From a virus, in IMG/VR virus record IMGVR_UViG_3300014539_000001, positions 1 to 35,928 of that record: DNA of 35,928 nt; one strand, 5' to 3'. The translations under genes were made by a program, and so were the position numbers. A model generated the notes under the pieces. That model ran no database searches and had not been told where the DNA came from. It saw only the letters and a list, made by a program, of their open reading frames with translations. Below are positions 7,931-35,928 of this stretch, in pieces; position 1 is the stretch's first letter, and every line of letters starts with the position of its first letter.

Positions 7931-7932
7931 AT

Positions 7933-16395: not shown

Positions 16396-16399
16396 TAGA

Positions 16400-16639: not shown

Positions 16640-16652
16640 AAAAAAGACGCCA

Positions 16653-16815: not shown

Positions 16816-16838
16816 CATTTATAAAAGAAGGTGAGTAA

Positions 16839-17051: not shown

Positions 17052-17052
17052 G

Positions 17053-17114
17053 TTCACGGGTCCTTCCTGGGGGGTCCGTATGCTAATGCGGGACCGTGAG
17101 CCCGGACTTTTTTT
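17053..17114. other. GC-rich imperfect hairpin cluster ending in CGGACTTTTTT. Terminator and/or cos-region candidate.
   Basis: CACGGGTCC...GGGGTCCG...CGGGACCGTG...CCCGGAC then T7. CGGACTTTTTT recurs at 17200-17210. Confidence 0.35.
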
Positions 17115-17255
17115 CTCAAAAATTGAAAAAAATTGCCTTACAAGTCTGCATAAAAATGTCTTTTGGTAGTGTAAAAAATAGCTAAAAGCCTTTTAATGAC
17201 GGACTTTTTTATTTGCTTATTAAGTTTATAAATTTGTCAGATTTGAGGTGAGAAC

Positions 17256-19530: not shown

Positions 19531-19737
19531 ATGCGAACAACACAAGAACAGTTGGAAGCCATAGATAAAGCAATTTATGCTTTAGAAAATACAGGAGTAA
19601 AAAGTTATAATCTTGGTACATACAGCGTAACGAGAGAGGATTTATCTACGCTATATGATGAGCGTAGGCAACTTAAAATAGAATTGGCATATGAAAATAA
19701 TAATGGAGGTGTATTTGTAGGAGTGTTTAACAAATGA
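19531..19737 (+). CDS. Head-tail joining protein, gpW-like (68 aa).
   Basis: Its size and its position between GpA-type TerL and the lambda-type portal match lambda gpW. Confidence 0.7.
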   Translation: MRTTQEQLEAIDKAIYALENTGVKSYNLGTYSVTREDLSTLYDERRQLKIELAYENNNGGVFVGVFNK

Positions 19738-21296: not shown

Positions 21297-23100
21297 TGAG
21301 GAAAACCGAACGGCCGTATTATCTTTTGCATCGGAAACGCCGGTAAGACGTTGGTACGGTAGTGAAGTATTGCAAATTGATACGCAAAGTGTAGATATGC
21401 AGCGTATAAAAGACGGTCTTTGTTGTCTTTTATACAACCATGATACCGATGAAGTAATCGGGAAGGTAATGCGTGCATGGATAGAAGACGGAAAGGCAAA
21501 AGCTGAAGTGTACTTCGATGATGACGAGAAGTCGGAGAGGGTATGGCAGAAAGTAAGAAAAGGCATTTTAAAAGGCGTTTCTGTTGGTTATATCGTAGAC
21601 GTATGGGAAAAAGTCGAGGAGGGTGCCGTTTCTACAAATGGTCGTATAACGGGTCCAGCATATATTGCAACTCGTTGGAATGTATATGAAGTATCTATTG
21701 TATCCGTGCCGGCAGATTCAGAAGTGGGTGTCGGCAGGGCACAAAATATGCAAGAAGGAGAAACAGGAATGGGAACAAACCCGCAAGAAGGTAATAATCG
21801 TAGCCAGGCAAATAATATTTCGCCGCTTACAGATAAAAATGAAGGACAAACGGAAAATGAACGTGTAAGAGGCATTGTAAGCTTATGCAGAGAGTTCAAC
21901 ATTGAGAATGAAAGAATGGATAAATTTCTGGCCAATAGAAACATGACAATCCGTGATGTGGAACATGAAATTTTAGAAGGTCTTAAGCGTGATAATAAAC
22001 CATCTAATACAGCAAAAGCACAGGTTGGTACAGAAGAAAGAGAAAAATTCAGAGCTGCAGCAACGGATGCCATTATGATGCGTGAGGGTTTTAATATCGA
22101 AAAGCCAGCACCTGGCGCAACTGAATTGATGGGCGCTGGTATCCGTGATTATATGATTTATTGTGTAAAACGAGAGCAACCAGAATTAAGAAATCTTGAA
22201 TTTATGGATGTACAGGAACTGGCACGTGTAGCAATGACTGGCACTGGAGCTCTTCCAGGCATTTTAAGTAATGTGGCTAATAAATCTATGGCACAGGCTT
22301 ATGCTATGGCGAATACGACATATCAAACGTGGACTAGTAAAGGAAATAATAAGGATTTTAAGGAAGCAACGCGCTATCGTATTGGTGAAGCTGGAGAACT
22401 TTTAGAAATAAAAGAAAGTGGCGAATTTAAATTTGATACCTTAAAAGAAGCTTCTGCGAGAGCTAAAGTATTAACTTATGGTCGTGCATGGTCTCTTACA
22501 CGTCAAGCAATTATAAATGATGATTTGGGAGCATTAACAACAATTCCGACAAAATATGCTTATGCGGCTGTTTTGGGTATCAACAAATTGGTTTATAAAA
22601 CGCTGGCGGATACATCCACGTTGTTTACATCCACTCGTAAAAATCTCGGTACAGCAGGAAAATTAAGTGTTACAACGCTCGGAGAAGCCCGTAAGTTAAT
22701 GCGTAACTTTACTAATATTGGTAGTAAGGAAAAATTAAATATTGCCCCAAAATTCTTGATTGTACCGTCTACATTAGAAACGGAAGCACAGCAACTTTTA
22801 CAGTCAACGGCAGATCCGCAAGGTGCAAACAGTGGTGTAAATAATCCGTTCAGAAATGCGCTTACACTTGTCTGTGATAGTGAACTTGACCAGTATAGTG
22901 AAACAGCTTGGTATTTGGCAGCTGATCCGATGCTTGCTGGTGGTGGCATTGAAGTAACGTACTTGAATGGTAAGAACAGTCCGACTATAGACAGTCAAGT
23001 ATCTTTTAAAAATCTTGGTATGGATTTTCGTATCTATATTGATTATGGCGTTAATATCATTGATTGGCGTGCTTTTGTTAAAAATGCAGGTCAGGCGTAA
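21220..23100 (+). CDS. Fusion of prohead protease (HK97/S78-type), a linker/scaffold-like region and the major capsid protein.
   Basis: The N-terminal 190 aa (FASETPVRRWYG...LYNHD...VIGKV...KGVSVGY) fit the prohead protease pattern. A charged linker follows, then a roughly 330-aa capsid-like domain. SD AGGAGGAAG precedes ATG 21220. Confidence 0.75.
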   Translation: MQQKVNPTEQKVPQTREITLTQEAINEENRTAVLSFASETPVRRWYGSEVLQIDTQSVDMQRIKDGLCCLLYNHDTDEVIGKVMRAWIEDGKAKAEVYFDDDEKSERVWQKVRKGILKGVSVGYIVDVWEKVEEGAVSTNGRITGPAYIATRWNVYEVSIVSVPADSEVGVGRAQNMQEGETGMGTNPQEGNNRSQANNISPLTDKNEGQTENERVRGIVSLCREFNIENERMDKFLANRNMTIRDVEHEILEGLKRDNKPSNTAKAQVGTEEREKFRAAATDAIMMREGFNIEKPAPGATELMGAGIRDYMIYCVKREQPELRNLEFMDVQELARVAMTGTGALPGILSNVANKSMAQAYAMANTTYQTWTSKGNNKDFKEATRYRIGEAGELLEIKESGEFKFDTLKEASARAKVLTYGRAWSLTRQAIINDDLGALTTIPTKYAYAAVLGINKLVYKTLADTSTLFTSTRKNLGTAGKLSVTTLGEARKLMRNFTNIGSKEKLNIAPKFLIVPSTLETEAQQLLQSTADPQGANSGVNNPFRNALTLVCDSELDQYSETAWYLAADPMLAGGGIEVTYLNGKNSPTIDSQVSFKNLGMDFRIYIDYGVNIIDWRAFVKNAGQA

Positions 23101-23118
23101 GAAAGAGAGGTACAAAAG

Positions 23119-23469
23119 ATGAGTGATTTTATTCAGATTGGTGAAAAAATGGACTTCCTTAACAATACAGGGGCTGATATCGCATATTATGATGTTGTAC
23201 CTGTTGGCACTGCTTGTATTGGCGTGGCGGAGATGGAAATACCGCAAAAGGAAATGGGAACAGTTAATTTAGAAGGTGTTTGGGAACTCACGGCGGATAA
23301 TGCAACGGTGTTTAATGTCGGAGATATGCTTTACTGGAATACTGCCGGAAAGAAACTTACCAAAACAAACACCGATGTACCGGCAGGAATTTGCGTGTTA
23401 AAAAAAGACGCTTCCACAGAAACGGCAAGAGTAAAACTTTTAGGCAATGGAATACCGACAGGAGAGTAA
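23119..23469 (+). CDS. DUF2190-type head decoration/cement protein.
   Basis: 116 aa directly after the capsid gene. Gly-rich beta pattern (VGDMLYWNTAGKKLT). Confidence 0.55.
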   Translation: MSDFIQIGEKMDFLNNTGADIAYYDVVPVGTACIGVAEMEIPQKEMGTVNLEGVWELTADNATVFNVGDMLYWNTAGKKLTKTNTDVPAGICVLKKDASTETARVKLLGNGIPTGE

Positions 23470-23514
23470 TAAAAGCTATCTATAAAAAAAGGATGGCTTT
23501 TTTTGAGGTAAAAC

Positions 23515-23841
23515 ATGAACGATTTTGAAAAAATGGTGTTGCATGACCATAAAAAAATTTTTTTAAATCCGCATGAATTGGGGCAGGAACATAATTTAAA
23601 CGGGAGTATTTGTCTTGCAAGTGTACAGTCTTTAACGGATAAGGAAAAATTAGTACAGCAAAATGTGGATTTTGGCAGGCTTGCCGGAGAAACTATAAAC
23701 GTATTTTGTACGGAATACGATTTACAGGAAAAACCGTTTAAAGGTCAGTTATTCAGATTGGATGGGAAAGTTTATTATGTGCAGGAGGTTGTAGATAATT
23801 ATGGTATGCTTAAAATCACTTTAGGAGTGAACAAGCCATGA
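23515..23841 (+). CDS. Putative head-tail adaptor / head completion protein.
   Basis: Position only. Confidence 0.4.
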   Translation: MNDFEKMVLHDHKKIFLNPHELGQEHNLNGSICLASVQSLTDKEKLVQQNVDFGRLAGETINVFCTEYDLQEKPFKGQLFRLDGKVYYVQEVVDNYGMLKITLGVNKP

Positions 23842-24467
23842 GCTTTGTTGTAGATACAAAAGATTTGGAAAGAGTGCGTAAAATGCTTGCCGGCGTGCCG
23901 CACGGGTCTGAAAAAGCCGTGGCGAATGCTATTAACAAATCTGCTCGAACGGCGGTTACTGGAGTTATAAAAGGTTTAAGAAAAAACTATACAGTAAATT
24001 CAAAGCACATAAGAAAGAACGGTTTTAACATAAAACGTGCCAATGCGGGAAATTTAGCAGCCGTTATCACGATAAGAGGCAGAGTTTTAGGATTAAATAA
24101 TTTCTTTATGACCCCGAAAGAACCTGCAAGAGAAATTCCATTTGCTAGAGTAAAAAAAGGCGGAGGCGGCAGTTTTCCGGGTGCTTTTGTTGCACGCATG
24201 AAATCAGGGCATGTAGGAATTTTTCAGAGGCTTCAGGACGGAACACACGGTAATATAAAAAAATATATGCAGGGATATAAACCGAGAGCCAAAAGAAAAG
24301 GAAATGGTCAAACAAAAGGGCGTGCCAGTATCTCCGAATTTTATGGACCGTCTGCTTCTTATATGGCAAAAAATCCTGAAATTCATGCAGATATGACACT
24401 TGATGTAAAAAATACCTTTGAAACAGAACTAAGTAGACAAATCGGTAATATTTTAAAGAAAGAGTGA
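23838..24467 (+). CDS. Putative head-tail joining / tail completion protein (GpZ- or gp10-like).
   Basis: Position, plus N-terminal similarity to the minor-tail-Z / HK97 gp10 style (..LAGVP..SEKAVANAINKSARTA..). Confidence 0.4.
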   Translation: MSFVVDTKDLERVRKMLAGVPHGSEKAVANAINKSARTAVTGVIKGLRKNYTVNSKHIRKNGFNIKRANAGNLAAVITIRGRVLGLNNFFMTPKEPAREIPFARVKKGGGGSFPGAFVARMKSGHVGIFQRLQDGTHGNIKKYMQGYKPRAKRKGNGQTKGRASISEFYGPSASYMAKNPEIHADMTLDVKNTFETELSRQIGNILKKE

Positions 24468-24471
24468 TATT

Positions 24472-24954
24472 TTGGCAGCAATCGAATTGACACAGGAAAT
24501 AGTTAATTTTTTGAAAAAGATTAATAAAAATTACGACAGTAGAAATGAAAAAGAAATTGCCGTTGTCGAAGGATTTATACCGGATATGTCACATGTGTGC
24601 GACCTTGAAAAATTATGCCCGCGTATTATTGTGCGGGCATATCAAATTGAGGACAGTGATAAGGATTTATCCGGCGGTGTTGCTGATATAAAAGTGCTTA
24701 TTACTTTTTTGACATATGAAGAAATAGATGAAGATGCTTACCTTTTAATTTATAACTGGGTGGAAAAAAACCGCCGTGCATTATTAAAACACAGACATTT
24801 AGGGGCGTATGTTTTAATGCTACCGATGACAACGCGCGTTTTAGATGAGGATAGCCAACCCAGACCAATGTGGGGAGCTTATATAGAAGCAACTTATCAG
24901 ACGGTAAGTATAGAAGAGGATGGACTGATTGAAGATGACTACGGATACGAATAA
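24472..24954 (+). CDS. Putative neck/tail terminator protein (TTG start).
   Basis: Position only. Confidence 0.35.
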   Translation: MAAIELTQEIVNFLKKINKNYDSRNEKEIAVVEGFIPDMSHVCDLEKLCPRIIVRAYQIEDSDKDLSGGVADIKVLITFLTYEEIDEDAYLLIYNWVEKNRRALLKHRHLGAYVLMLPMTTRVLDEDSQPRPMWGAYIEATYQTVSIEEDGLIEDDYGYE

Positions 24955-25192
24955 CAGCACAGCAGTAATTTATATCGGCCCTATGATTGTGAAGTATGAT
25001 TTAGTGCCGAATAAATGCTTTAAAAAAGGTATTCCATATGATTATCCACCGTATAAACAGCTTTTTACTGAATATAATTTATTTAAATATTTATTCGCTG
25101 CGCCGAAAGAATTGATTGCTAAAAAACGTAATTTAAAATTGGTGGGAACGGTGGAAAATCAGGCGGTAAACCAGTTGAAAGAAGGGAAATAG
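24929..25192 (+). CDS. Hypothetical structural-module protein (87 aa).
   Basis: Position upstream of the sheath gene. Confidence 0.4.
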   Translation: MKMTTDTNNSTAVIYIGPMIVKYDLVPNKCFKKGIPYDYPPYKQLFTEYNLFKYLFAAPKELIAKKRNLKLVGTVENQAVNQLKEGK

Positions 25193-25196
25193 ATAA

Positions 25197-26648
25197 ATGC
25201 CAACGACATATAAACACGGGATTTACATTCAGGAGCAGGAAACATCTTTAGTTCCTACAATAGAGGTAAGTGCAGGGCTTCCTGTCGTAGTCGGTACGGC
25301 ACCGGTACATCTTGCAACGGACGCGGTACCGGCAAACAAGGCAACGCTTATTTATAACTATGCCGATGCGGCGTCTCAATTCGGGTATTCAGACGACTGG
25401 GACAATTATACTTTATGCGAGTATATGGACGCCGCTTTCAGCAAAAACAGCATAAGCCCCGTCATTTTTATAAATGTTTTGGATATAACAAAACATAAAC
25501 AGACGGTGGCAAGTACACAGAAAACACTTGTAAATAAAGAAATAACCCTAAATGAACCGGTAATTTTATCGACTTTAGTCGTGAAAAAAGACGACGCAGG
25601 AGAATCGCTTATTAAAGATACGGATTATCTGGCAGCTTACAATGATGACGGACAGCTTGTTATAAGCATATTAAAAGAAGATATTGAGGACAGTATTTAT
25701 GTTGCTTATGATAAAATCGATCCGTCTGCAATTGATAAAGATGATATTATCGGTGGGGTTGACACGGCGACGGGACAGAATACAGGACTTGAAGCAGTGG
25801 CGGACGTTTATCCGTTGTATAACCTTGTGCCGGGACAGATAATCGTACCGAAATACAGCTCTGACAGTGAAGTTGCCGCCGTAATGGATGCTAAATGCGA
25901 AAATATAAACGGCAGTTTTCGCTGTATTGCACTTATAGATGTGGATACAAACGCCGTTAAAAAATATACGGATGTTAATAATTGGAAAAACCAGAATAAT
26001 ATTTCTACGGCAAATCAGGTATGTTATTGGCCTATGGTTTCTCTTGGAAATAAAAAATATCACATGTCGGTTTTAGCTTCCTGTGTAACTTTAAATACAG
26101 ATGCGCAACATGATGATGTACCGTTTAAATCCCCGAGTAATGAAACAATAGTCGGAGACGGATTGTGTTTAGCGGACGAAACGGAAGTTGTTTTCGGCAA
26201 GGATATTGCCAATTATTTGAACGGTATCGGCACAGTTACGGCGATAAATCAGAATGGTTGGAAACTTTGGGGCAATAATACGGCTGCATATCCGGGAACA
26301 ACGGACCCGAAAGACAGGTGGATTGCCTGCCGCCGCATGATGAACTGGATAGGCAACACGCTTCAGACGACGTTTTTCTCTAAAGTGGACAATCCGATAA
26401 GACCGCGTTTTGTGGAAAATATAGTAAATTCCGCAAACGACTGGCTTAATGGACTTACGGCGCAACAGGTTATTTTAGGCGGCAGAGTTGAATTTCTGCA
26501 ATCCGAAAATCCTACAACAGATTTAATAAATGGAAAAGTAATGTATCATGTTTATATCGGATTGCCTGTTCCGGCGGAAAATATCACATTTACACTTGAG
26601 TTTGATGTAGCGTATTATGATACATTATTCGCCTCGATGACGGCATAA
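25197..26648 (+). CDS. Contractile tail sheath protein.
   Basis: 483 aa. The N-terminus TYKHGIYIQEQETSLVPTIEVSAGLPVVVGTAP is typical of P2 FI / Mu L sheaths. Confidence 0.9.
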   Translation: MPTTYKHGIYIQEQETSLVPTIEVSAGLPVVVGTAPVHLATDAVPANKATLIYNYADAASQFGYSDDWDNYTLCEYMDAAFSKNSISPVIFINVLDITKHKQTVASTQKTLVNKEITLNEPVILSTLVVKKDDAGESLIKDTDYLAAYNDDGQLVISILKEDIEDSIYVAYDKIDPSAIDKDDIIGGVDTATGQNTGLEAVADVYPLYNLVPGQIIVPKYSSDSEVAAVMDAKCENINGSFRCIALIDVDTNAVKKYTDVNNWKNQNNISTANQVCYWPMVSLGNKKYHMSVLASCVTLNTDAQHDDVPFKSPSNETIVGDGLCLADETEVVFGKDIANYLNGIGTVTAINQNGWKLWGNNTAAYPGTTDPKDRWIACRRMMNWIGNTLQTTFFSKVDNPIRPRFVENIVNSANDWLNGLTAQQVILGGRVEFLQSENPTTDLINGKVMYHVYIGLPVPAENITFTLEFDVAYYDTLFASMTA

Positions 26649-26660
26649 GGAGGTAAAAAA

Positions 26661-27176
26661 ATGAAACTGCCGACACATATAGAAAAAGCGAAATGTTATG
26701 ACGCGGATAATAATATGCAGTATGTAGGAATGGCAAGTATAACGCTTCCGAGTATAGAAAAGAAAAAAGCGACTATTGAAGGTATGGGCGTAATGGGCAC
26801 GATAGAAAACCCGACACGCCGAGCACTCGAAAGTATGACGCTTTCTTCTACATTCCGCGGGCTGACGGATAATAATATGGAGCTTTTAAACGGTGTTAAA
26901 TCTTTAGACTACAGAGCGGCGTTAAATGTTTATGATACAGCTCTGAAAGTAAATCGCACCGTACAAATACGCGTTGCAGTAACAGGACCCGTTTCAACTT
27001 ACGATTTAGGCGAAGCGGAAGTATCCAACGCCATGAGCGTACAGGCGGACATTGAGGTCTATAATCTTAAAGTCTGGCTTGATAAAAAACCGAAAATTGA
27101 GTTCGATAAATGGAATGAAATTTACAGAATAAACGGCATAGATGTAGCAAGCGACGTTGATGAAGCCGTAGATTGA
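26661..27176 (+). CDS. Tail tube protein (P2 FII-like).
   Basis: 171 aa after the sheath gene. The ..ITLPSIEKKKATIEGMGVMGTIENP.. pattern is present. Confidence 0.85.
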   Translation: MKLPTHIEKAKCYDADNNMQYVGMASITLPSIEKKKATIEGMGVMGTIENPTRRALESMTLSSTFRGLTDNNMELLNGVKSLDYRAALNVYDTALKVNRTVQIRVAVTGPVSTYDLGEAEVSNAMSVQADIEVYNLKVWLDKKPKIEFDKWNEIYRINGIDVASDVDEAVD

Positions 27177-27184
27177 GGTGAAAT

Positions 27185-27499
27185 ATGTTTATTTTAGAAT
27201 TACAGGAGCCGCTTAAATACGGCACAAATGAATATAAAAAATTAGAATTTGACTTTGAGAAATTGCGCGGCCAGGATTTTATCGACGCGGAAAGTGAAGT
27301 AAGAAAAACGAGGCCGGGTATTTTGTTCGTCGAAGCGGATGCGCAGTTTTTAATGGAACTTGCGGCAAAAGCGGCAGGTGTTTCCAGTGTGATTTTAGCT
27401 GATTTATCTGCAAAGGACTTTTGCAAAATAAAAAGCGTAGCAAGAAATTTTATGAATGTTTCGCTGGGAGTTCTGCCGGAAAAATCGAAACAGTACTGA
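27185..27499 (+). CDS. Tail assembly chaperone (P2 gpE-like).
   Basis: 104 aa between the tube and tape measure genes. The -1 frame is open from 27403 to 27660. Confidence 0.75.
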   Translation: MFILELQEPLKYGTNEYKKLEFDFEKLRGQDFIDAESEVRKTRPGILFVEADAQFLMELAAKAAGVSSVILADLSAKDFCKIKSVARNFMNVSLGVLPEKSKQY

Positions 27500-27660
27500 A
27501 AAACTTCAGGAGAAATATAATCTATCTTTCAAGGCATACTCATACACCGATAAACGTGTATTTGAATATGCCTGTTTTTGAATTGTATAAATGGATGCAA
27601 ATTACCGGAGAAATCCTTAGAAGTGAGGTGAAAAATATCCGTGGCAAGCAAAACATATGA
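27403..27660 (+). CDS. Frameshift extension of the tail chaperone (E-prime part), reached by a -1 shift from 27185-27499.
   Basis: The -1 frame is open from the stop at 27400-27402 to 27660 and overlaps the tape measure start. This is the conserved chaperone arrangement. Confidence 0.6.
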   Translation, partial: FICKGLLQNKKRSKKFYECFAGSSAGKIETVLKNFRRNIIYLSRHTHTPINVYLNMPVFELYKWMQITGEILRSEVKNIRGKQNI

Positions 27661-29680
27661 TTTTGCTTTTAAAATTCTCGGCGGTCTTGACCCGCAATTT
27701 GCCCGTTCGTTTCAACAGGCAACAGGACAGATAAAAAACCATAACAGAACGCTTTCCGAGCTTGAACAGAATTTAAAAGCAATGGAAGATGCGTATCGGA
27801 AAGGTATAATATCAGAACGCTCCTTTACGAACAACAAATCTGCACTTATTAATAAAATAAATCAGGAAACACAGGCAATCGAAAAACTTACACAACAACA
27901 AAAAGAATACCAGGAAGCACAAAATGCAATATCCGGTTTAGGCGGCGGAATAAGCGGAGCGGTCAGCGGCATAGCGGCGGGCTTAGGCGTCGGAGCAGTA
28001 TTGTCTCAAGTTGGAGCTTATCAGCAGGCGCTTGGACAGGCTCAGGCGCTTACGGGTGCAGTAGGTCAGGACTGGGAAAATATAAGCACAGCAATAAATA
28101 ATACGTATTTAACAGGGCTGGGCGCAGATTTGCAGGATGTGGCAAATTCCACAGGCCAAATAAGACAGATTATAGGCAACTTGGGTACGGATATAGATAA
28201 AGCCGTACAGCACGCTCTTGTTTTGCGCGATACCTTCGGAATGGAAATAACGGAATCGGCACGCGCGGCAAAAGTAATGATGGAACAGTTCCGTATAAGC
28301 GAACAGCAGGCGTACACTTTAATGGCTCAAGGTGCGCAGCTCGGCGCGGATAAAAACGGCGATTTACTTGATACACTAAATGAATACAGCGTACAATTTA
28401 AACAACTCGGTTTCGACGCTGAAAGTTTTATGAACATCTTAGTCGCCGGAGCAAATAGCGGAGTATGGTCAATTGATAAAATCGGAGATGCCGTAAAGGA
28501 ATTCGGCATAAGAGTAAAAGACGGCAGTAAAACAACAGCGGAAGGATTTTCAACAATTGGGTTAGATGTCGATGAAATGGCACAAAAATTTGCCAAAGGC
28601 GGCGAAAGTGCGCAAAATGCTTTTCTTGAAACGATAAATGCGCTTAAAGCTGTAGATGACCCTGTTCAAAGAAATATTGCGGGTGTGAACTTATTCGGCA
28701 CTATGTGGGAAGATATGGGCGAAAAAGCCGTTTTTGCGCTTGCTGATACGAATAATGCCGTAAATATGAATGGTCAAACGTTAGATGATATAACGAATAA
28801 CAAATTAAATAATTTTAATACTGCAATAACAAAACTCGGCAGGGTGTTAATGGTAAATATAATTGCTCCTTTATCAGAACAATTAACACCGGCAATAAAC
28901 GCTTTTTCCGAAGCAATTTCCGCTATTAATCCGGATGTACTTGTTGCGGCAATAGCAGGTATCGGTGCGGCGATAGCGGCATTTCAAATCGGTTCTTTTC
29001 TGGCAAGTTTTGGCGGTATTGCGGCAGCGGCTACAGCAGCAGGGGCTGCGATTACGGCTATATCGTGGCCAATAATAGCAGCAACCGTGGTAATCGGTGC
29101 ACTTGTAGCAGCCGGTGTATATCTTTATCAAAACTGGGATGTTATTTCTGCAAAGGCTAGTGAGCTGTACGATAATGTTTCCGCTTCTTTTGCTGAACTT
29201 TACAACAGTGTAATAAGTGAAATAAACCGAATTACAGCAGAAGGTATGGCATTATGGGAACAATTCACCAGTTTTCTATCTCATCCGATTGACAGTACGA
29301 TAAATTTAGTCAGAAATATAATTACAAATGATGACGGCGGAGCAGATGTGCCGGGGTTTGCCAGCGGCGGTCTTATAAATCGACCGACACTGGCAACATT
29401 TGCAGAAAATTCTCCTGAAATGGCAATCCCGATTAACGGTTCTGACCGTTCTATCGGGCTTTGGCAACAGGCAGGACAAATGCTCGGTGTAGATAGCAGT
29501 ATTCCGGCATCTTCCAATACAACAAATTATGGCGGCAATATTACATTTGCTCCGACGATTACAATTCAGGGAAATGCAGACAGAGTGGATATACAGTCAG
29601 CAGTGAAAGACGCATATTCCGAGTTTAAAAACATGATGAGCAGATATGCACGAGAACAAAGGCGGCTGAGCTATGAATGA
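27641..29680 (+). CDS. Tape measure protein.
   Basis: 679 aa. Coiled-coil N-terminus, Gly/Ala-rich hydrophobic segments, position after E/E-prime. GTG start with SD GAGGTGA. Confidence 0.9.
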   Translation: MASKTYDFAFKILGGLDPQFARSFQQATGQIKNHNRTLSELEQNLKAMEDAYRKGIISERSFTNNKSALINKINQETQAIEKLTQQQKEYQEAQNAISGLGGGISGAVSGIAAGLGVGAVLSQVGAYQQALGQAQALTGAVGQDWENISTAINNTYLTGLGADLQDVANSTGQIRQIIGNLGTDIDKAVQHALVLRDTFGMEITESARAAKVMMEQFRISEQQAYTLMAQGAQLGADKNGDLLDTLNEYSVQFKQLGFDAESFMNILVAGANSGVWSIDKIGDAVKEFGIRVKDGSKTTAEGFSTIGLDVDEMAQKFAKGGESAQNAFLETINALKAVDDPVQRNIAGVNLFGTMWEDMGEKAVFALADTNNAVNMNGQTLDDITNNKLNNFNTAITKLGRVLMVNIIAPLSEQLTPAINAFSEAISAINPDVLVAAIAGIGAAIAAFQIGSFLASFGGIAAAATAAGAAITAISWPIIAATVVIGALVAAGVYLYQNWDVISAKASELYDNVSASFAELYNSVISEINRITAEGMALWEQFTSFLSHPIDSTINLVRNIITNDDGGADVPGFASGGLINRPTLATFAENSPEMAIPINGSDRSIGLWQQAGQMLGVDSSIPASSNTTNYGGNITFAPTITIQGNADRVDIQSAVKDAYSEFKNMMSRYAREQRRLSYE

Positions 29681-29873
29681 ATACAAAACCTTGCAAGGAG
29701 ATACATGGGACTTAATCGCATTTAATAAACTTGGCGGTGAACAGTACACGGACAGGCTTATAGAAGCAAATTTAAATTACCGGGAATATGTAGTATTTCC
29801 GGCAAATATAACGCTTGTTCTGCCGGAAATACAAACGCCGAAAACAATGATACTTCCGCCGTGGAAGAGGTGA
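29673..29873 (+). CDS. Tail protein X (LysM-like, P2 gpX family).
   Basis: YKTLQGDTWDLIAFNKLG...ANLNY...VFPANITLVLPEI. Confidence 0.8.
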   Translation: MNEYKTLQGDTWDLIAFNKLGGEQYTDRLIEANLNYREYVVFPANITLVLPEIQTPKTMILPPWKR

Positions 29874-29877
29874 GAAT

Positions 29878-30882
29878 ATGATAGGACGGCAGAATATACC
29901 GAAAGTACTCTATAACAACAAAGATATTACGCAGGATTTAGCACGATTTTTAGAAAGTATAAGCTACAATGACCCTTTAAGTGATAAAGCCGACGATTTG
30001 ACGCTTACCGTAGATAATTCGCTTAAACTTTGGAATAATAATTGGCTGCCGGAAAAAGGCGCAATGCTCGAAGTTTCTTTGATATCCAAAATGGACAATA
30101 AAGAAGAAGTTTACCCGCTCGGAAAGTTTGAAATCGACGAAATTGAAGTAAGCGGCACACCGTCTGTCGCACAAATAAAAGCCGTATCCATTCCGGATAA
30201 TGCAATGCTTCGTGGTGTAGATAAAAACAAATCCTGGGAAAAATACACCCTGTCTCAAATAGCGCAGGATATAGCAAATATTGCCAAAATGGAGCTTATT
30301 TACAGCGCGGATACCAACCCTGTAATCGAACGCGCGGAAGTTACGGAGGAAAGTTATCTGGCATTTTTACAAAAATTGTGCATCGATAACGGTATGGCAT
30401 TAAAAGTGTCGAACATGAAGCTGATAATTTTTGAGGAATACAAATACGAGCAACAGGAACCTACCGCTGAAATAGATTTTTCGGTGCAACGTGTAATTTC
30501 ATACAGGTTTACAAGCAAATTGCGGGATACTTATAAATCATGTCATATAAAATATACGGATACGAATACGGGGCAGACATATGAAGGCACATTCACAGAT
30601 GAAAACAAACAGACGGGACAGACGCTGGAGATAAATAAGCAGGTTATTTCCATTGCGGACGCTGAACGATTGGCAAAACAGGAACTCAGGAACACGAATA
30701 AAGATGAACTTACAGCCGATATCGAGATTGAAACGGCTGTTTTCTATTATGCAGGGCAAACAATTAATATAAAAAATATGGGTGCATTTTCCGGTAAATA
30801 TATAATTACAAATGTATCCTACGATATAAGCAGCGGTATGAATGTAAAACTAACGATAAGGCGGTGTCTGAATGGCTACTGA
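29878..30882 (+). CDS. Late control D / tail hub protein (P2 gpD, Mu gp44-like).
   Basis: 334 aa, by position and general pattern. Confidence 0.75.
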   Translation: MIGRQNIPKVLYNNKDITQDLARFLESISYNDPLSDKADDLTLTVDNSLKLWNNNWLPEKGAMLEVSLISKMDNKEEVYPLGKFEIDEIEVSGTPSVAQIKAVSIPDNAMLRGVDKNKSWEKYTLSQIAQDIANIAKMELIYSADTNPVIERAEVTEESYLAFLQKLCIDNGMALKVSNMKLIIFEEYKYEQQEPTAEIDFSVQRVISYRFTSKLRDTYKSCHIKYTDTNTGQTYEGTFTDENKQTGQTLEINKQVISIADAERLAKQELRNTNKDELTADIEIETAVFYYAGQTINIKNMGAFSGKYIITNVSYDISSGMNVKLTIRRCLNGY

Positions 30883-31279
30883 TAATAATATTATTCGCGA
30901 AGGAATTGTTTCCACTGTAGACCCCGAAACAATGACGGCAACTGTGATTTTTCCCGATAAGGACAATACCGTTTCCGGTCCTTTGAAAATAGGTACACAG
31001 GGAAGTCGTGAAGATAAAATGGCATGGCTGCCGCTTCCGGGAGACCCTGTGGCATGTGTAATGAAGCAGAATAATACAACCAGCTTAAACCAGGGCTTTA
31101 TTATCTGTACGTTTTTTAATGAACAAAATAAACCTCCCGATGATATCGGAACAGGAAAGCGGATTTTAAATTTCGGCGACGGTACGAAGATAACTTACGA
31201 TAAAAATTCTCATGAACTTAGAATTGACTGTGTAGGGAAAATATATATAAACGGTTCAGAGATACATTTAAATGAATGA
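30872..31279 (+). CDS. Baseplate spike / assembly protein V.
   Basis: GIVSTVDPETMTATVIFPDKDNTVSGPLKI is the gpV OB-fold N-terminus. Confidence 0.75.
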   Translation: MATDNNIIREGIVSTVDPETMTATVIFPDKDNTVSGPLKIGTQGSREDKMAWLPLPGDPVACVMKQNNTTSLNQGFIICTFFNEQNKPPDDIGTGKRILNFGDGTKITYDKNSHELRIDCVGKIYINGSEIHLNE

Positions 31280-31307
31280 AAAATCATATTTTATGAATAT
31301 TGTTTAA

Positions 31308-31368
31308 ATGTAATTTATATGTAATTATTAGATTTTTATACAGATTAATAATGTAATAATGATGTAAT
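31308..31368. repeat. Four phased ATGTAAT repeats in the AT-rich spacer upstream of the PAAR gene.
   Basis: Copies at 31308, 31319, 31351 and 31362 form two pairs spaced 11 bp apart. Confidence 0.6.
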
Positions 31369-31382
31369 AAAGAGGTGATAAG

Positions 31383-31700
31383 ATGTCGGCTGTAACAAGA
31401 ATATTAGATACTACTACAGGAATTTGTGATTTAAAATTACCGGATTGCCCACATTCTCGAACAGGAAGCAATAACGAAGGCAGTCCGAATGTATTTGTTA
31501 ATGGTCAGCCTGTTCATCGGCAGGGCGACGGCGGTGCGACTAATTGCCCGCACAGCGGAACTTTTAAAAGTACGAATGGAAGTAGTAGCGTATTTGTAAA
31601 CGGCAGACCGATAACAAGAATTGGCGATACGACAAATTGCTCTGTATGCGGACAGAACGGCACGCACAACAGCGGAAGTGATAACGTATTTGCCGGATAG
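31383..31700 (+). CDS. PAAR-like spike-tip protein.
   Basis: Three repeats of the S.NVFVNG.P..R.GD type, plus Cys/His ligands. Confidence 0.8.
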   Translation: MSAVTRILDTTTGICDLKLPDCPHSRTGSNNEGSPNVFVNGQPVHRQGDGGATNCPHSGTFKSTNGSSSVFVNGRPITRIGDTTNCSVCGQNGTHNSGSDNVFAG

Positions 31701-31712
31701 AGGAGTGTTTTT

Positions 31713-32237
31713 ATGGCGGTAATCGGAAGTTTAGGAACAGTTATTTTTCAGGTTAGTAACGACAGTTTATTTAGTGGAAAAGGAATGGGTGCAGTTGGCA
31801 GTTTATTAAATATGGCGACCAATCAGAAAGGCATCATATACAGAACCCCAAAAAACTATCAGAGAAAATCTTCCGCGCGTTGGGCAGTACATGATATTAT
31901 CGGTCAAAAACCCGTTTCCGAATTTATTGGAGCAGGATTGGAAAGTTTTTCTTTTGGTTTAACATTGGATGCTGAACTCGGCACAAATCCAAACAAGGAA
32001 CTTGAAAAACTTAGGCAAATGCGCGATACCGGTGAAAAAGTATTTTTGATTTTAGGAAATAAACCTGTGTTAAAAAATGGAGCACGCGTTTATATAACGG
32101 ATATCAGTGAAAATGTAATAAGAACAAATAAAAACGGCAAAATAACGGCAATTGATGTATCCGTTTCACTTCAGGAGTATACATTGCGGCAAGAGGAGAT
32201 GTTTATAAGTGGTAATAGTACAAATAAATCTGGCTGA
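31713..32237 (+). CDS. Tail protein, P2 gpU-like.
   Basis: ..ARWAVHDIIGQKPVSEFIGAGLESFSFGLTLDAELG...LEKLRQM.. parallels the gpU pattern. Confidence 0.6.
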   Translation: MAVIGSLGTVIFQVSNDSLFSGKGMGAVGSLLNMATNQKGIIYRTPKNYQRKSSARWAVHDIIGQKPVSEFIGAGLESFSFGLTLDAELGTNPNKELEKLRQMRDTGEKVFLILGNKPVLKNGARVYITDISENVIRTNKNGKITAIDVSVSLQEYTLRQEEMFISGNSTNKSG

Positions 32238-32547
32238 GCCGCAAAAAATAGATTTTGCACCGGCAAATATGATATTAGAAGTAGCGCAGAACGTTTATAC
32301 ACTTCTTGCTACAGATAAATATACTGTTCCTTTAGATCGTAATTTCGGCTTATCTACAACCTTAATCGACCAGCCAATAAATTTAGTACAGGCACAGCTT
32401 CGAGCTGAAATACTGGAGGCCGTAGCACAATACGAGCCACGTTTTATAGTGGAAGAAATTAATTTTATAAAAAGTACAAAATTAAAAGAAGGCGTTTTAT
32501 ATCCGACGATAAAAGGAAGAATAAACGATGAATACACAATAAATTGA
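32209..32547 (+). CDS. Baseplate wedge protein, GPW/gp25 family.
   Basis: ..VPLDRNFGLSTTLIDQPIN..AQLRAEILEAVAQYEPRF.. is the gp25 signature. GTG start with SD GAGGAG. Confidence 0.8.
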   Translation: MVIVQINLAEPQKIDFAPANMILEVAQNVYTLLATDKYTVPLDRNFGLSTTLIDQPINLVQAQLRAEILEAVAQYEPRFIVEEINFIKSTKLKEGVLYPTIKGRINDEYTIN

Positions 32548-33721
32548 AGAAATTTTAAATTCTATTTTCGACTATGATACAGATGAAAATAATCAAATAA
32601 CTTTTGTTAATATAAATACGGATTTAATCCAAGAAACAATAATAAGCCTGTATGAAAAAATTACGGGACGAACGCTTGAAAGAGCAGACCCTATTAGATT
32701 ATTTATCTTGAGTATATGTTATATAGTTATTTTGCTGTTGAAAGTAATTAACTATACGGGAAAACAAAATTTGCTAAGATATTCGGCAGGCAAATATCTA
32801 GACGAACTCGGATATCTAATGGACACAGAGCGTCTATCTGCAACAGCGGCGCAGACAACGATAAAAGTTACGCTTTCGGATACATTTACGAAAGATACTG
32901 TAATACCAAAAGGAATAAGAGTTTCTCCAGATGGAAATATTTATTTTTCAACCGATGAAGTTCTTATAATCGGCGCCGGCAAAAAAGAGGGCACAGTCTC
33001 TGCGACATGTACAGAGCTCGGTACAATCGGCAACGGTTTTCTGCCGGGGCAGATAAAATTAATAATCGATCCGAACCCGTATGTGCAGGCAATGGAAAAC
33101 ACGACACTTTCCGAAGGCGGCAGCGAAATTGAGGAAGACGACGTATACAGAGAGCGTATCCATAATTCACCCGAAAAATTTTCTGTTGCAGGACCGGATG
33201 GAGCATATGAATTTTGGGCCCGCAGTGCATCGGCACTGATTGAGGATGTACGTGTAGTTTCTCCTGTGCCGGGAGATGTAGATATTTATGCAATACTTCA
33301 GGGCGGTGAGCTTCCACAGCAGGAACTTTTGGACGAAATTTACACTATATGCAATGATAAAAAAATACGGCCATTGACGGACCATGTATTTGTAAAAACG
33401 CCGGAAGTTATAAAATACGATATAAATGTAACGTATTTTGTGCATATAGATGACCAGTACAAACTTACGGAAATAAGTGCGGCGGTAGAAAGTGCCATAA
33501 ATAATTTTGCGCTATGGACTAAAAGTAAAATCGGCAGAGATATAAATATAACCGAACTTCACAGTAGAATTTTAGCCGCTGGCGTGAAGCGTGTTGATAT
33601 AAAAATTCCGCAATATACGCAAATACTGGAAGGCGATAACACGAAAAAAATAATTGACCCGGTACAGCTCGCGGTAGCGGAAAATATAACAATAACTTAT
33701 GGCGGTATTGAGTATGATTAA
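32528..33721 (+). CDS. Baseplate J-like protein, with an in-frame TAA at codon 5 (32540-32542). The canonical-start ORF begins only at 32708.
   Basis: The frame is open from 32543. It encodes ITFVN...LYEKITGRTLERADPIRLFI...GKQNLLRYSAGKYLDELG, the conserved baseplate-J N-terminus, with no ATG/GTG/TTG in it. ATG 32528 (SD AAGGAAG) gives MNTQ and then TAA. Confidence 0.8.
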
Positions 33722-34367
33722 AATAGACGATATCCAATTTGACAAAATCCTGCCCTACAGCATAAAAAATGATGAAACAGTTAAAAATATAGTGCAGGTT
33801 TTAGATAAAACTTTTAATAAGATAAGTGCCAATATAGATAAGGTACTGCTTTGGGACAAAATAGATGTTTTACCCGAAGAAATTTTGGACCTGCTGGCAT
33901 ATCAATTGAAAGTAGACTATTACGATATCATGATGCCGACAGTAGAGCAAAAAAGAATATTAATAAAAGACTCCATACGGCAGCACAAAATAAAAGGGAC
34001 ACCGGCAGCAGTAGAAAAGCTGGTGTCCTTTTACTTTGAGTCAGCGAAAACATTGGAAAATTGGGAATATGAAGGAGGAGAAGCGTATCATTTCAAGATA
34101 ATCGATATACTTGCGCCGATGCCGAGTATACGAATGCTAATGGACCTGATAAAAGTTATTTATACGAGTAAAAATACGCGTTCTTGGTGCGATGAAGTAC
34201 GCTTCCAACGGAACTATAGCAAGACGATTTATTACGGTGCCTATACAAATATGTATAAAAAAATAATTTTAAGACCGCATGTGTTTGATAAGGATAAACT
34301 TATAGGAATAACTTACATGACTGGATATACCAATATGTATAAGAAAGTGGGGATAAAAAATGCCTAA
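33699..34367 (+). CDS. Tail protein I (P2 gpI-like).
   Basis: ILPYSIKNDE...LLWDKIDVLPEEILDLLAYQLKVDYY...KRILIKDSIRQHKIKGTPAAV. Alternative start at ATG 33714. Confidence 0.8.
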   Translation: MAVLSMIKIDDIQFDKILPYSIKNDETVKNIVQVLDKTFNKISANIDKVLLWDKIDVLPEEILDLLAYQLKVDYYDIMMPTVEQKRILIKDSIRQHKIKGTPAAVEKLVSFYFESAKTLENWEYEGGEAYHFKIIDILAPMPSIRMLMDLIKVIYTSKNTRSWCDEVRFQRNYSKTIYYGAYTNMYKKIILRPHVFDKDKLIGITYMTGYTNMYKKVGIKNA

Positions 34368-35928
34368 TATAGAAGGATACAAACTTACCAATAAAGGTAA
34401 TGCGCTTCAGATAAAGGTTGAAGCTGGAAAATGTAAATTAGATATAACTAAATTAAAACTTGGTAGCGGTACGGCAAGCGGCGATATTGTAAATTTAACG
34501 GATTTAGTAAAAGTTGAACAAACTGTACCGATTTCCAAAATAGAGGTAATAGACGATTACACATGTCGTATAACGGGGCTTGTAACTAATCAGGGGCTTA
34601 ATAAAACGTATTATATCCGCGAAATCGGACTGTATGCACAGGACCCGGACGACGGCGAAATACTATATCTTGTGGCGGTTGATAAAAATCCCGACGTAAT
34701 GCCGGCAGACAATTACCAAATGATTATAAGCCAAGAATTTAACATAGACGTAGTAGTAAGCAATGTCGACAGCGTAAACGTAACCAGCCAGCCCGTACAT
34801 TTAATAACGGATGACGAATTAAACAAAAAAATAGAAGAACACAATACATCTGCAAATCCGCATGAAAATATATTTAAACGTGTGCTTATAACCGAAGCAA
34901 AAACCGCTGCAAATACCTCAGACTGGAACATGTTGATTGAAAGTCGCACCTATAAGATATCAGGAGCAACATTTGCCGCGGATAAACATCAGCCGGTCGG
35001 AGCAGTCGGCACCGGTGAACTAGTAGTATTGAAAAATGGAGATGATACCATAGCACAGGTGTATTATGCAAACTCTGCCGCCTACGACAAAGCAGGCGCA
35101 TACCACAGAATGTGTATTAGTGGAGCGTGGACGGATTGGGTGTATAACATAACTAATAAAGGCGGTAATGTAACTGGAGATTTTAATATAAATGGGAAGT
35201 TGACCGTCGATAGTGTACAAGTAAATGATAGACTTATGATCGGTGAAATAGACCCTGCACATCCAGATACAAGCAATTTTTTGACACCTGAAGATTTGAA
35301 AAAGATACAAGACCAAATAATAGCACCACAACAAACTATTTACGTAGACCAAAAAAATGGAAATGATAATAATGATGGAACAATTTCTAATAAAGCGTTT
35401 AGAACACTAAATAAAGCAATAGCTTCTATACGACAAGATATTCCTACATTAGCAATAAATTTAAAAACATATACAGAAGAAAAAGATAGAATGTATAATA
35501 CATTCTATCTAGATGAACCCATAAATTTTAGTAACACGTATCAATCTCCGTATAGAGCGATACGCGTTAGTAAGCAATTTAGTATATCTGCTACATGGGA
35601 AAATTATATAAGCAATAATATTGTAGCTAAGATAGTAGCACCTTATGGAAAAGTAAGTACAGGAGATAAAATAGATAATACATTATTATACGCATGGGGA
35701 AATATATTGTTTATAGCCCCCAAGTGTGATTTAAAGTTTGTTGCAGTAAATTTTGCTTTTCCAGAAGACGTGCAAAATGATAGTAAATTTACCAACACAT
35801 TATTTTATCAGCTTGTTGGTAGTTTAGAAATCCAGAATATACAGGGAAATACATTACAAATTCCCGCTAATTGTTCCTTATTAAATGCGTATTATGGAAC
35901 AACAATAGATAGAGTGGAATTTTCCCAA
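34360..35928 (+). CDS. Tail fibre. The N-terminal constant part plus the currently expressed C-terminal cassette. It runs off the window end and continues at 100-330.
   Basis: ATG 34360 overlaps the gpI stop. The N-terminus MPNIEGYKLTNKGNALQ...LGSGT resembles the P2 gpH N-terminal domain. No stop before 35928. The C-terminal IYVDQKNGNDNNDGT motif is typical of a beta-helix N-cap. Confidence 0.85.
   Translation, partial: MPNIEGYKLTNKGNALQIKVEAGKCKLDITKLKLGSGTASGDIVNLTDLVKVEQTVPISKIEVIDDYTCRITGLVTNQGLNKTYYIREIGLYAQDPDDGEILYLVAVDKNPDVMPADNYQMIISQEFNIDVVVSNVDSVNVTSQPVHLITDDELNKKIEEHNTSANPHENIFKRVLITEAKTAANTSDWNMLIESRTYKISGATFAADKHQPVGAVGTGELVVLKNGDDTIAQVYYANSAAYDKAGAYHRMCISGAWTDWVYNITNKGGNVTGDFNINGKLTVDSVQVNDRLMIGEIDPAHPDTSNFLTPEDLKKIQDQIIAPQQTIYVDQKNGNDNNDGTISNKAFRTLNKAIASIRQDIPTLAINLKTYTEEKDRMYNTFYLDEPINFSNTYQSPYRAIRVSKQFSISATWENYISNNIVAKIVAPYGKVSTGDKIDNTLLYAWGNILFIAPKCDLKFVAVNFAFPEDVQNDSKFTNTLFYQLVGSLEIQNIQGNTLQIPANCSLLNAYYGTTIDRVEFSQ
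35186..35212. repeat. Inverted repeat IR-A (expressed-gene copy), partner 1223-1249.
   Basis: 26/27 identity in inverted orientation. Marks the constant/variable boundary (NINGKLTVD). Confidence 0.85.
35312..35348. repeat. Inverted repeat IR-B (expressed-gene copy), partner 1111-1147.
   Basis: 35/37 identity in inverted orientation (QIIAPQQTIYVD). Confidence 0.9.
35830..35928. repeat. Terminal direct repeat (copy 2), identical to 1-99.
   Basis: Read directly. Confidence 0.95.

What the first reader, a model, noticed from the sequence alone, without database searches (positions are those of the whole stretch)
35186..35928. The fibre switch has two nested inverted-repeat pairs but no recombinase anywhere in the closed genome
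Seen:
- I read every listed ORF plus the small ORFs I translated myself. None shows a serine-recombinase (YxRVST..Q) or tyrosine-recombinase (R..HxxR..Y) pattern.
- The gene flanking the segment, where Gin/Cin/Pin normally sit, is a 98-aa exported YfiM-like protein.
- The only DNA-cleaving proteins I recognise are the HUH Rep, the RecU-like resolvase and the terminase.
- Two IR pairs (27 bp and 37 bp, about 100 bp apart) offer two possible crossover points, which would give chimeric junctions.

Inference, one of three options:
- Inversion is catalysed in trans by a host invertase.
- It is catalysed by an unrecognised protein or RNA of this element.
- The cassette is a reservoir used by rare homologous exchange.

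An orphan, recombinase-less phage shufflon would be unusual.
Basis: partly seen in the sequence, partly recalled or inferred. Interest (0 to 1): 0.7.

Follow-up and report, generated by a model that had tools for sequence, protein, structure and literature searches.

The report
Tail-fibre flip switch without its own recombinase
A 35.8-kb plasmid-like phage of the gut bacterium Megamonas carries a real DNA flip-switch that swaps the tip of its tail fibre, yet no recognisable enzyme to flip it was found in its genome, so the flipping most likely depends on the host, on another resident element or on general recombination.

Summary

- **Genome.** The window is a closed 35,829-bp circle.
- **Fibre gene.** It runs 34360..35928 and continues to 330. 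It has a constant N-terminal part and an expressed C-terminal cassette A. Tail-to-tail with A lies a promoterless inverted cassette B (357..1249, minus strand).
- **Repeats.** IR1 is 26/27 identical between its arms. IR2 is 40/43.
- **No recombinase.** Pfam scans of the ORFs listed in the full report found no serine or tyrosine recombinase, DDE transposase or reverse transcriptase.
- **The inversion is real.** Contig L051 carries the same IR1-to-IR1 segment at 99.74% identity (5 mismatches in 1,895 bp), exactly reversed, with B fused to the fibre. Four more cassettes occur in the expressed slot in one phage and the silent slot in another.
- **IR1 is constrained at the nucleotide level.** Its rare codons GGG-AAG-TTG are kept in nearly all of the 34 distinct arm sequences compared; the one single-cassette relative lacks them.
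- **IR2.** It is a conserved coding motif that has served as a second junction (natural B-head + A-body chimeras).
- **Sister phages.** Phages on the same plasmid backbone carry a Rin-like shufflon with a tyrosine recombinase in the same slot.
- **Host.** Megamonas.

Who catalyses the flip is unresolved. I favour a recombinase supplied in trans (about 0.5) over homology-driven exchange (about 0.3).

The parts
34360..35185 (+). Constant N-terminal part of the tail-fibre gene (residues 1-275), ending ...TNKGGNVTGDFN
   Evidence: ORF translation. It is 93-97% identical in L002, L003, L037 and P0107. The N-terminal 100-130 residues match annotated phage tail and tail-fibre proteins.
35186..35212 (+). 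IR1, expressed-side arm (ATATAAATGGGAAGTTGACCGTCGATA). The 19-nt core ATATAAATGGGAAGTTGAC lies at 35186-35204. This is the outer boundary of the invertible segment.
   Evidence: 26/27 identity with 1223-1249. The core is conserved in the 34 distinct arm sequences compared, with one-base changes in the TTG codon in a few. The reversed alignment to L051 starts at 35184.
35186..35928 (+). Cassette A (expressed C-terminal receptor-binding part), first part. It continues at window 100-330, because 1-99 repeats 35830-35928.
   Evidence: The AlphaFold model has pLDDT 87.6 and is beta-rich, with weak matches to beta-helix glycosidases and tailspikes.
1..330 (+). Cassette A, end of the fibre ORF (stop at 328-330). 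Bases 1-99 duplicate 35830-35928, the circular assembly overlap.
35305..35347 (+). IR2, A-side arm, encoding ...IQDQIIAPQQTIYVD
   Evidence: 40/43 identity with 1111-1153. The similarity of L050 and L053 to cassette A starts or ends here.
331..356 (.). 26-nt spacer between the two tail-to-tail cassettes
   Evidence: It is part of the segment that is reversed in L051.
357..1249 (-). Cassette B, the silent alternative C-terminal cassette (296 codons from INGKLTVD to the stop). It has no usable start codon or ribosome-binding site.
   Evidence: In L051/P0107 it is fused in frame to the constant part as a 572-aa fibre.
1111..1153 (-). IR2, B-side arm
1223..1249 (-). IR1, silent-side arm (reverse complement ATATAAATGGGAAGTTGACTGTCGATA)
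1250..1262 (-). Conserved flank outside the silent arm (AGTTCCGAAAATG in cassette sense; TTCC-N-AAAAT in nearly all silent arms)
   Evidence: Alignment of the related silent arms among 16 retrieved sequences (two are not phage arms). Its function is unknown. A dif-like reading was tested and rejected.
1280..1576 (+). 98-aa exported protein that always abuts the silent arm. It is not specific to the switch.
   Evidence: It is present next to the locus in all relatives, including the single-cassette L002 and most recombinase-bearing sister phages (5 of 7). No Pfam or PHROG match.

Best explanation
This is a two-state invertible host-range switch of a Megamonas phage-plasmid.

The fibre gene has a constant 5' part. 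A 1.89-kb segment bounded by the inverted 19-29-bp IR1 sites follows it. That segment carries two tail-to-tail receptor-binding cassettes (A and B). Reciprocal crossover within IR1 flips the segment and fuses the other cassette in frame to the constant part.

Shown:
- the anatomy;
- the in-frame design;
- a natural flipped copy;
- cassettes moving between the expressed and the silent slot;
- nucleotide-level constraint on IR1;
- the absence of any recognisable recombinase in the closed genome.

Inferred: the strand exchange at IR1 is done by a site-specific recombinase supplied in trans. That enzyme would come from the Megamonas host or from a co-resident prophage or plasmid. It would recognise the conserved core ATATAAATGGGAAG(TTGAC).

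IR2 is not a second dedicated site. It is a conserved coding stretch where ordinary homologous exchange has reshuffled cassette heads and bodies.
For: Anatomy.

Inversion in nature:
- L051 10827-12721 equals window 35184..1249 reversed, at 99.74% identity with 0 gaps. Its fibre P0107 is the constant part plus B, and A sits in the silent slot.
- L049 shows the same state.
- Slot polymorphism of other cassettes: L008/L010 expressed equals L017 silent at 97%; L042 expressed equals L050 silent at 96%; L019 expressed equals L042 silent at 91%.

All silent cassettes are intact 285-330-codon ORFs. Most are preceded by a stop codon and none has a usable start.

Site-like properties of IR1:
- The outer boundary is fixed in every genome.
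- The perfect identity between arms is only 16-29 nt in 12 of 14 genomes.
- The core keeps the rare codons GGG (8% of Gly codons), AAG (18% of Lys) and TTG (17% of Leu) in nearly all arms.
- The single-cassette relative L002 encodes the same INGKL with GGA-AAA-TTA.
- A conserved TTCC-N-AAAAT flank lies outside the repeat on the silent side.

No recombinase in cis. None lies in the DNA held around the locus (3-10 kb downstream, about 10 kb upstream in most) in relatives on three other backbones.

Precedent inside the family for recombinase-driven fibre switching: sister phages with 94-100% identical plasmid genes carry a PF00589 recombinase plus up to 11 CAGTGGGGA sites in the same slot.
Against: - No candidate trans recombinase was identified.
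- The exact 19-mer core occurs in no related locus of 185,579 species-representative genomes. No host locus therefore shares the exact site, which is what a global invertase regulon would predict.
- IR1 shows no gix/hix-like dyad.
- Natural exchange at IR2, and a 606-bp inversion in L039 without any repeat, show that non-site-specific recombination also reshapes this locus.
- Two genomes have long arms (54 and 93 nt perfect identity).
- Flipped copies were seen only between samples, so the flipping rate is unknown.
Confidence: 0.5

Rival explanations
1. Homology-driven inversion. The flip and the cassette reshuffling are produced by general recombination between the short identical stretches (IR1, IR2). 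The route would be RecA-dependent crossover or RecA-independent template switching during replication, possibly with junctions cut by the phage RecU. Events are rare, but frequent enough for selection to keep both cassettes. IR1 is conserved as a universal linker that allows cassette exchange between phages.
For: - Chimeras whose junction is IR2, which is not a family-wide site.
- Cassette partners differ between close relatives, so replacement by exchange is common.
- The whole IR1-to-IR1 module is 99.7% identical between backbones that are only 77% identical. This shows recent horizontal transfer by recombination at or near IR1.
- Two genomes have 54-nt and 93-nt perfect arms.
- The phage encodes RecU.
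- No recombinase was found anywhere.
Against: - Perfect arm identity is only 16-21 nt in 8 of 14 genomes. From general knowledge, this is below the roughly 25 nt that RecA-type exchange needs.
- The outer boundary of the repeat is identical in all lineages.
- The conserved flank outside the repeat is not explained by homology needs.
Confidence: 0.32
2. An unrecognised recombinase, or an unusual use of a known nuclease, encoded by the phage itself. Candidates are one of the hypothetical early proteins at 14084-15446, the HUH Rep, or RecU.
For: Several early proteins (123, 122, 152 and 158 aa) have no Pfam, PHROG or PDB sequence match. The only structure prediction tried for them was unusable (pLDDT 37).
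Against: - In the DNA held for phages with unrelated backbones, the only window gene always found with the same switch is the 98-aa exported protein.
- That protein also occurs in the single-cassette phage and in most recombinase-bearing phages.
- The unknown proteins are shorter than any known complete recombinase.
- The plasmid-module genes visible in the held DNA, including the 158-aa protein, are shared with sister phages that nevertheless carry their own recombinase. The region holding Rep, RecU and the 122-152-aa proteins was not within the DNA held for any relative.
Confidence: 0.07
3. The switch is no longer active in this particular phage. The inverted cassette is a relic or reservoir. 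The flipped copies reflect ancient events, or events catalysed when the module resided in integrase-bearing or recombinase-bearing relatives.
For: - Only between-sample differences were seen.
- Integrated relatives (L039, L054, L055) presumably carry an integrase elsewhere.
- Cassette B is found mostly in the silent form: 12 of 13 cluster members.
Against: - The flipped segment differs by only 5 of 1,895 bases.
- Silent cassettes are intact in every genome examined.
- The IR1 rare codons are maintained.
Confidence: 0.08

Closest known systems
Serine-invertase tail-fibre switches: Mu G segment/Gin, P1 C segment/Cin, e14 Pin, p15B Min
   Same: A constant fibre N-terminus is fused to one of two inverted alternative C-terminal cassettes. 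Short inverted repeats sit exactly at the constant/variable junction. Inversion changes receptor specificity. The crossover site lies at the outer edge of the repeat.
   Different: No adjacent or distant serine invertase gene. No 26-bp gix/hix-type dyad. No fibre-chaperone genes inside the segment. The host is a diderm Firmicute (Megamonas).
Tyrosine-recombinase shufflons: R64 Rci/sfx, and the Rin shufflon of Bifidobacterium prophages (PMC6109161)
   Same: Short asymmetric repeats inside the coding sequence of a receptor-binding protein. The sister phages here (L040, L041, L043, L044, L046-L048) are of this kind. They have a 340-aa PF00589 enzyme and up to 11 CAGTGGGGA sites in the same genomic slot.
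   Different: The window has only two sites and two cassettes. It has no PF00589 gene and no remnant of one. Its repeat differs from the sister phages' CAGTGGGGA site.
Orphan invertible loci served by trans-acting recombinases: Bacteroides fragilis Mpi and Clostridioides difficile RecV (own knowledge), and the recombinase-less inverted locus proposed in tRNA-Met bifidophages (PMC6109161). Invertible regions without a nearby recombinase are also noted in PMC9881135.
   Same: An invertible segment flanked by inverted repeats, with no recombinase in cis.
   Different: Here the orphan locus sits in an autonomous, closed phage-plasmid genome with no recombinase at all. No host locus with the same core was found. 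The trans enzyme is hypothetical.
Silent-cassette antigenic variation by general recombination (Neisseria pilE/pilS; own knowledge)
   Same: Promoterless partial gene copies that reach the expression site by recombination at short conserved stretches. Mosaic products occur (the IR2 chimeras).
   Different: The window/L051 pair is a reciprocal inversion that keeps both cassettes. It is not a non-reciprocal conversion.

Membership tests
Gin/Hin/Cin/Pin-type fibre inversion system | Constant fibre part plus two inverted alternative C-terminal cassettes, with inverted repeats at the junction | tested here: met
Gin/Hin/Cin/Pin-type fibre inversion system | Segment actually found in both orientations | tested here: met
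   L051 and L049 versus the window, 99.7% identity, reversed
Gin/Hin/Cin/Pin-type fibre inversion system | Serine invertase gene (PF00239) next to the segment | tested here: not met
   No PF00239 in any scanned ORF. tblastn with Hin/Gin was negative.
Gin/Hin/Cin/Pin-type fibre inversion system | 26-bp dyad crossover site with an AAACC-NN-GGTTT core | tested here: not met
   No match at either IR1 arm. The window-wide count equals chance.
Gin/Hin/Cin/Pin-type fibre inversion system | Fis-dependent enhancer | not testable with these tools
   No recombinase gene in which to look. This needs biochemistry.
Tyrosine-recombinase shufflon (Rci, Rin) | PF00589 recombinase adjacent to the cassettes | tested here: not met
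   Absent from the window. Present in sister phages L040-L048.
Tyrosine-recombinase shufflon (Rci, Rin) | Three or more short repeats separating multiple cassettes | tested here: not met
   Only two IR1 arms and two cassettes. The sister phages have up to 11 sites.
Orphan inverton served by a trans-acting recombinase | Invertible segment flanked by inverted repeats, with no recombinase in cis | tested here: met
Orphan inverton served by a trans-acting recombinase | Same repeat consensus at other loci of the host genome (a regulon of one invertase) | tested here: inconclusive
   The exact 19-mer was found in no related genome locus. Only exact matches could be searched, and only one genome per species.
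Orphan inverton served by a trans-acting recombinase | Identified host recombinase required for the flip | not testable with these tools
This needs genetics.
Diversity-generating retroelement | Reverse transcriptase plus a template/variable repeat pair | tested here: not met
   No reverse transcriptase domain in any scan. The repeats are inverted and the cassettes are only about 36% identical.
RecA-type silent-cassette conversion | Non-reciprocal copying from a silent to an expressed copy | tested here: not met
   The window/L051 difference is a reciprocal inversion that retains both cassettes. Mosaics at IR2 do exist.

The most novel reading that the evidence does not exclude
The flip is carried out by something encoded in the phage that no current profile recognises. 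Candidates are a new small recombinase among the hypothetical early proteins, or a non-canonical use of the rolling-circle Rep or the RecU resolvase at the IR1 core. This would define a new class of DNA-inversion enzyme.
Probability: 0.07. Interest if true: 0.85.

Novelty: new variant of a known kind. Interest (0 to 1): 0.6.

Why it matters
Invertible tail-fibre segments are a long-studied model of programmed DNA inversion. In every studied phage case known to me the phage brings its own invertase.

Here a complete, autonomous phage-plasmid of an abundant human-gut genus (Megamonas) keeps a working two-cassette switch and no recognisable recombinase was found in it. Its closest relatives, on the same backbone, do carry a recombinase with a different fibre module.

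If the enzyme comes from the host or from a co-resident element, then a phage's host-range choice is controlled from outside the phage. That gives a new layer of phage-host and phage-phage dependence, and a caution for host-range prediction from phage genomes alone.

If it is homology-driven, it shows how short a repeat can sustain a maintained switch.

The system is directly testable. The sites, both states and the host genus are now defined.

Tried and rejected
1. **gix/hix-like site.** No AAACC-NN-GGTTT core at IR1. The window-wide count equals chance.
2. **dif-like site for host Xer recombinases.** The silent-side site matches a Firmicute dif at 18/28 (10/11 in one arm; dif sequences from PMC3025954). 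But 30 other positions in this AT-rich genome score as well or better. Rejected as chance.
3. **Remnant of the sister phages' tyrosine recombinase, or similarity of IR1 to their CAGTGGGGA sites.** No tblastn hit. The site similarity is weak.
4. **L039 versus L042.** A 606-bp inversion inside the expressed cassette at 100% identity looked like a second switch. It has no repeats at its ends and truncates the fibre, so it is an illegitimate event or a misassembly.
5. **L031.** It looked like a solitary IR1 site in another context. It is a CRISPR spacer.
6. **Contig ends.** L052 ends exactly at the outer edge of IR1 and L053 at IR2. This is compatible with mixed orientations in those samples, but equally with strain mixtures, so it was not used as evidence.
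7. **Structure prediction of a hypothetical early protein without an alignment.** pLDDT was 37, unusable. PDB sequence searches of four unknown proteins gave nothing.
8. **Annotated collections and genomes.** No close relative in annotated phages or plasmids. No relative in the species-representative genomes.
9. **Rfam and tRNA scans of the window.** Nothing found.
Full report
**What is in the window**

Bases 1-99 repeat 35830-35928, so the sequence is a closed 35,829-bp circle. It encodes:
- a gpA-type terminase, a lambda-type portal and a protease-capsid fusion;
- a contractile tail with a P2-like baseplate;
- a GH25 lysin and a DNA methylase;
- ParA with upstream 42-nt repeats, and a cI-like repressor;
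- a rolling-circle Rep and RecU.

No integrase was found, so it looks like a plasmid-type prophage. G+C content is 34%.

**The locus**

The tail-fibre ORF starts at 34360, crosses the junction of the circle and stops at 330, giving 599 aa.
- Residues 1-275 are the constant part.
- From 35186 onward is cassette A.
- On the other strand, tail-to-tail after a 26-nt spacer, lies cassette B (357..1249). It is 36% identical in protein to A (E 3e-32).
- B has no usable start codon. In most relatives a stop codon sits two codons upstream of its first conserved residue.

The two repeats:
- IR1 (35186-35212 / 1223-1249) is 26/27 identical.
- IR2 (35305-35347 / 1111-1153) is 40/43 identical.
- Between them the two cassettes differ and have a 24-nt indel.

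An AlphaFold model of cassette A, built on 28 homologues, is confident (pLDDT 87.6) and beta-rich. It gives only weak matches, to beta-helix glycosidases and phage tailspikes. This fits a receptor-binding or depolymerase tip but does not prove it.

**No recombinase**

Pfam scans covered:
- every stop-to-stop ORF of 80 aa or more in 1-17.7 kb, both strands;
- the main annotated late genes of 100 aa or more from the large terminase to gene 33699..34367;
- the twelve largest antisense ORFs there.

Not scanned were the constant part and first 214 codons of the fibre/cassette-A ORF, three short late ORFs (65-90 aa) and the smaller ORFs (<122 aa) in other frames of the late region.

None of the scans gave a serine or tyrosine recombinase, a DDE transposase or a reverse transcriptase. 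Rfam and tRNA scans were empty. PHROG and PDB sequence searches left four small early proteins unexplained. The one structure prediction I could spend on them was unusable.

**Relatives and host**

The window has no close relative among annotated phages or plasmids. Its large terminase is 44% identical to that of Faecalibacterium phage FP_Epona.

Related metagenomic loci were found with the fibre's constant part, with the IR1 19-mer and by exact-protein look-ups.

The order 'fibre, inverted cassette, 98-aa exported protein, lysis genes' recurs on at least four different phage backbones. No recombinase lies in the DNA held around the locus, which reaches 3-10 kb downstream and about 10 kb upstream in most of these loci.

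One integrated relative (L039) is flanked by genes whose exact products are annotated Megamonas (TypA, YlqF, SepF, an aldo/keto reductase). The host genus is therefore Megamonas, a diderm Firmicute. This rests on shared, nearly identical cassette, holin-like and flank genes between L039 and the window.

**The inversion is real**

- Contig L051 carries the segment window 35184..1249 at 99.74% identity (5 mismatches in 1,895 bp, no gaps) in the opposite orientation. The alignment ends exactly at the IR1 arms.
- Its fibre (P0107, 572 aa) is the constant part fused in frame to cassette B. Cassette A sits in the silent slot.
- A second contig, L049, shows the same state.
- The flanks of L051 are much less similar: 77% over the tail genes and 91-97% on the lysis side. 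The module has therefore also moved between backbones.
- Other cassettes occupy the expressed slot in one phage and the silent slot in another: L008/L010 versus L017 at 97%, L042 versus L050 at 96%, and L019 versus L042 at 91%.

**IR1 versus IR2**

In 14 genomes that hold both arms:
- The outer edge of the repeat is always at the same base.
- The perfect identity between arms is 16-29 nt in twelve genomes, and 54 and 93 nt in two.
- The core ATAAATGGGAAGTTGAC is kept in 18 expressed-arm sequences and in the 14 related silent-arm sequences compared, with one-base changes in the TTG codon in a few. It uses codons that are rare in this genome: GGG 8%, AAG 18%, TTG 17%.

The only single-cassette relative (L002) encodes the same INGKL with GGA-AAA-TTA. 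The nucleotide conservation therefore belongs to the two-cassette arrangement, not to the protein motif. This is one genome only.

A short flank outside the repeat on the silent side (TTCC-N-AAAAT) is also conserved.

IR2 encodes QIIAPQQTIYVD at the start of the predicted beta-rich domain. Its high arm-to-arm nucleotide identity is seen in only some genomes. Even so, natural cassettes exist that join the B head to the A body exactly there (L042/P0030, L050).

**Sister phages**

L040, L041 and L048 share the window's plasmid module at 94-100% protein identity. They have a different fibre, several short inverted fragments, up to 11 copies of CAGTGGGGA and a 340-aa PF00589 recombinase. All of this lies in the slot where the window has cassette B.

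This is the Rin type of shufflon described for Bifidobacterium prophages (PMC6109161). The same paper mentions a recombinase-less inverted locus in other bifidophages and suggests an invertase supplied in trans. PMC9881135 notes that invertible regions without a nearby recombinase exist in bacteria.

**Mechanism**

The steps shown are the anatomy, the in-frame exchange at IR1, the natural occurrence of both states, and the lack of a recognisable enzyme in cis. The catalyst is inferred.

I favour a site-specific recombinase supplied in trans (about 0.5), for these reasons:
- arm identity is often too short for RecA-type exchange;
- the boundary is fixed;
- the core is constrained at synonymous sites;
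- a flank outside the repeat is conserved.

Homology-driven exchange (about 0.3) is supported by the IR2 chimeras, by frequent cassette replacement, and by the lack of any host locus with the exact core.

A hidden phage enzyme (about 0.07) is unlikely. In the DNA held for the other backbones, the only window gene that always accompanies the switch is the 98-aa exported protein. That protein also occurs in phages without the switch.

**Verdict**

This is a real tail-fibre inversion switch that is well conserved across related phages and lacks its own recombinase. It is a new variant of a known kind, in phages of an abundant gut genus. It is of moderate-to-good interest and can be tested directly.

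Noticed in passing
L031 4400-5100 (metagenome contig OIXS01002071.1): A CRISPR array (30-nt repeat ATTTAACTTTAACAAGAGTTGTATTTGAAT). One 35-nt spacer, AGTTCCTAAAATAATATAAATGGGAAGTTGACGGT, equals the silent-side flank plus IR1 core of L042-type phages. A bacterium has therefore acquired immunity against exactly this junction.
   Followed up: partly
L039 7931-8536 versus L042: A 606-bp piece inside the expressed cassette is inverted at 100% identity. There are no inverted repeats at the breakpoints, and the inversion truncates the fibre to 277 aa. It is either an illegitimate inversion in an integrated prophage or a misassembly.
   Followed up: partly
L040, L041, L043, L044, L046, L047, L048 (about 5-9 kb in each locus): Sister phages carry a multi-cassette fibre shufflon, with up to 11 CAGTGGGGA sites encoding QWG, and a 340-aa tyrosine recombinase. 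It lies in the same slot between the fibre and the lysis genes. In L040 the recombinase ORF is split.
   Followed up: partly
window 7350-8330: About 1 kb with no ORF of 60 aa or more, upstream of parA. It holds 42-nt direct repeats at 7371-7470 and perfect palindromes at 7890-7921 and 7934-7971. Likely a partition site, an origin or regulatory DNA.
   Followed up: no
window 9029-9078 and 9732-9781: A 50-nt inverted repeat pair (78% identical) brackets the gene 9079..9627, which encodes a membrane protein with an Ada-type zinc-binding domain.
   Followed up: no
window 21205-23100: A single 631-aa ORF combines an S78 prohead protease domain and a major capsid domain.
   Followed up: no
L052 (1,881-bp contig) and L053 (1,494-bp contig): Short contigs that hold the invertible segment end exactly at the outer edge of IR1 (L052) and at the edge of IR2 (L053). 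This is expected if the assembly graph branches there in those samples. L052 also has a roughly 100-nt deletion that splits cassette B.
   Followed up: partly
window 1280-1576: The 98-aa exported protein next to the switch has no Pfam or PHROG match. It is conserved (45-98% identity) beside the fibre locus in most relatives, with or without the switch. Its role is unknown.
   Followed up: partly
Cassette homologues P0027 and P0096: Public records name these fibre cassettes 'asparaginyl-tRNA synthetase'. The cause is a weak match of the IR2-encoded helix region to the N-terminal extension of human AsnRS (PDB 4zya). This is a misannotation.
   Followed up: yes
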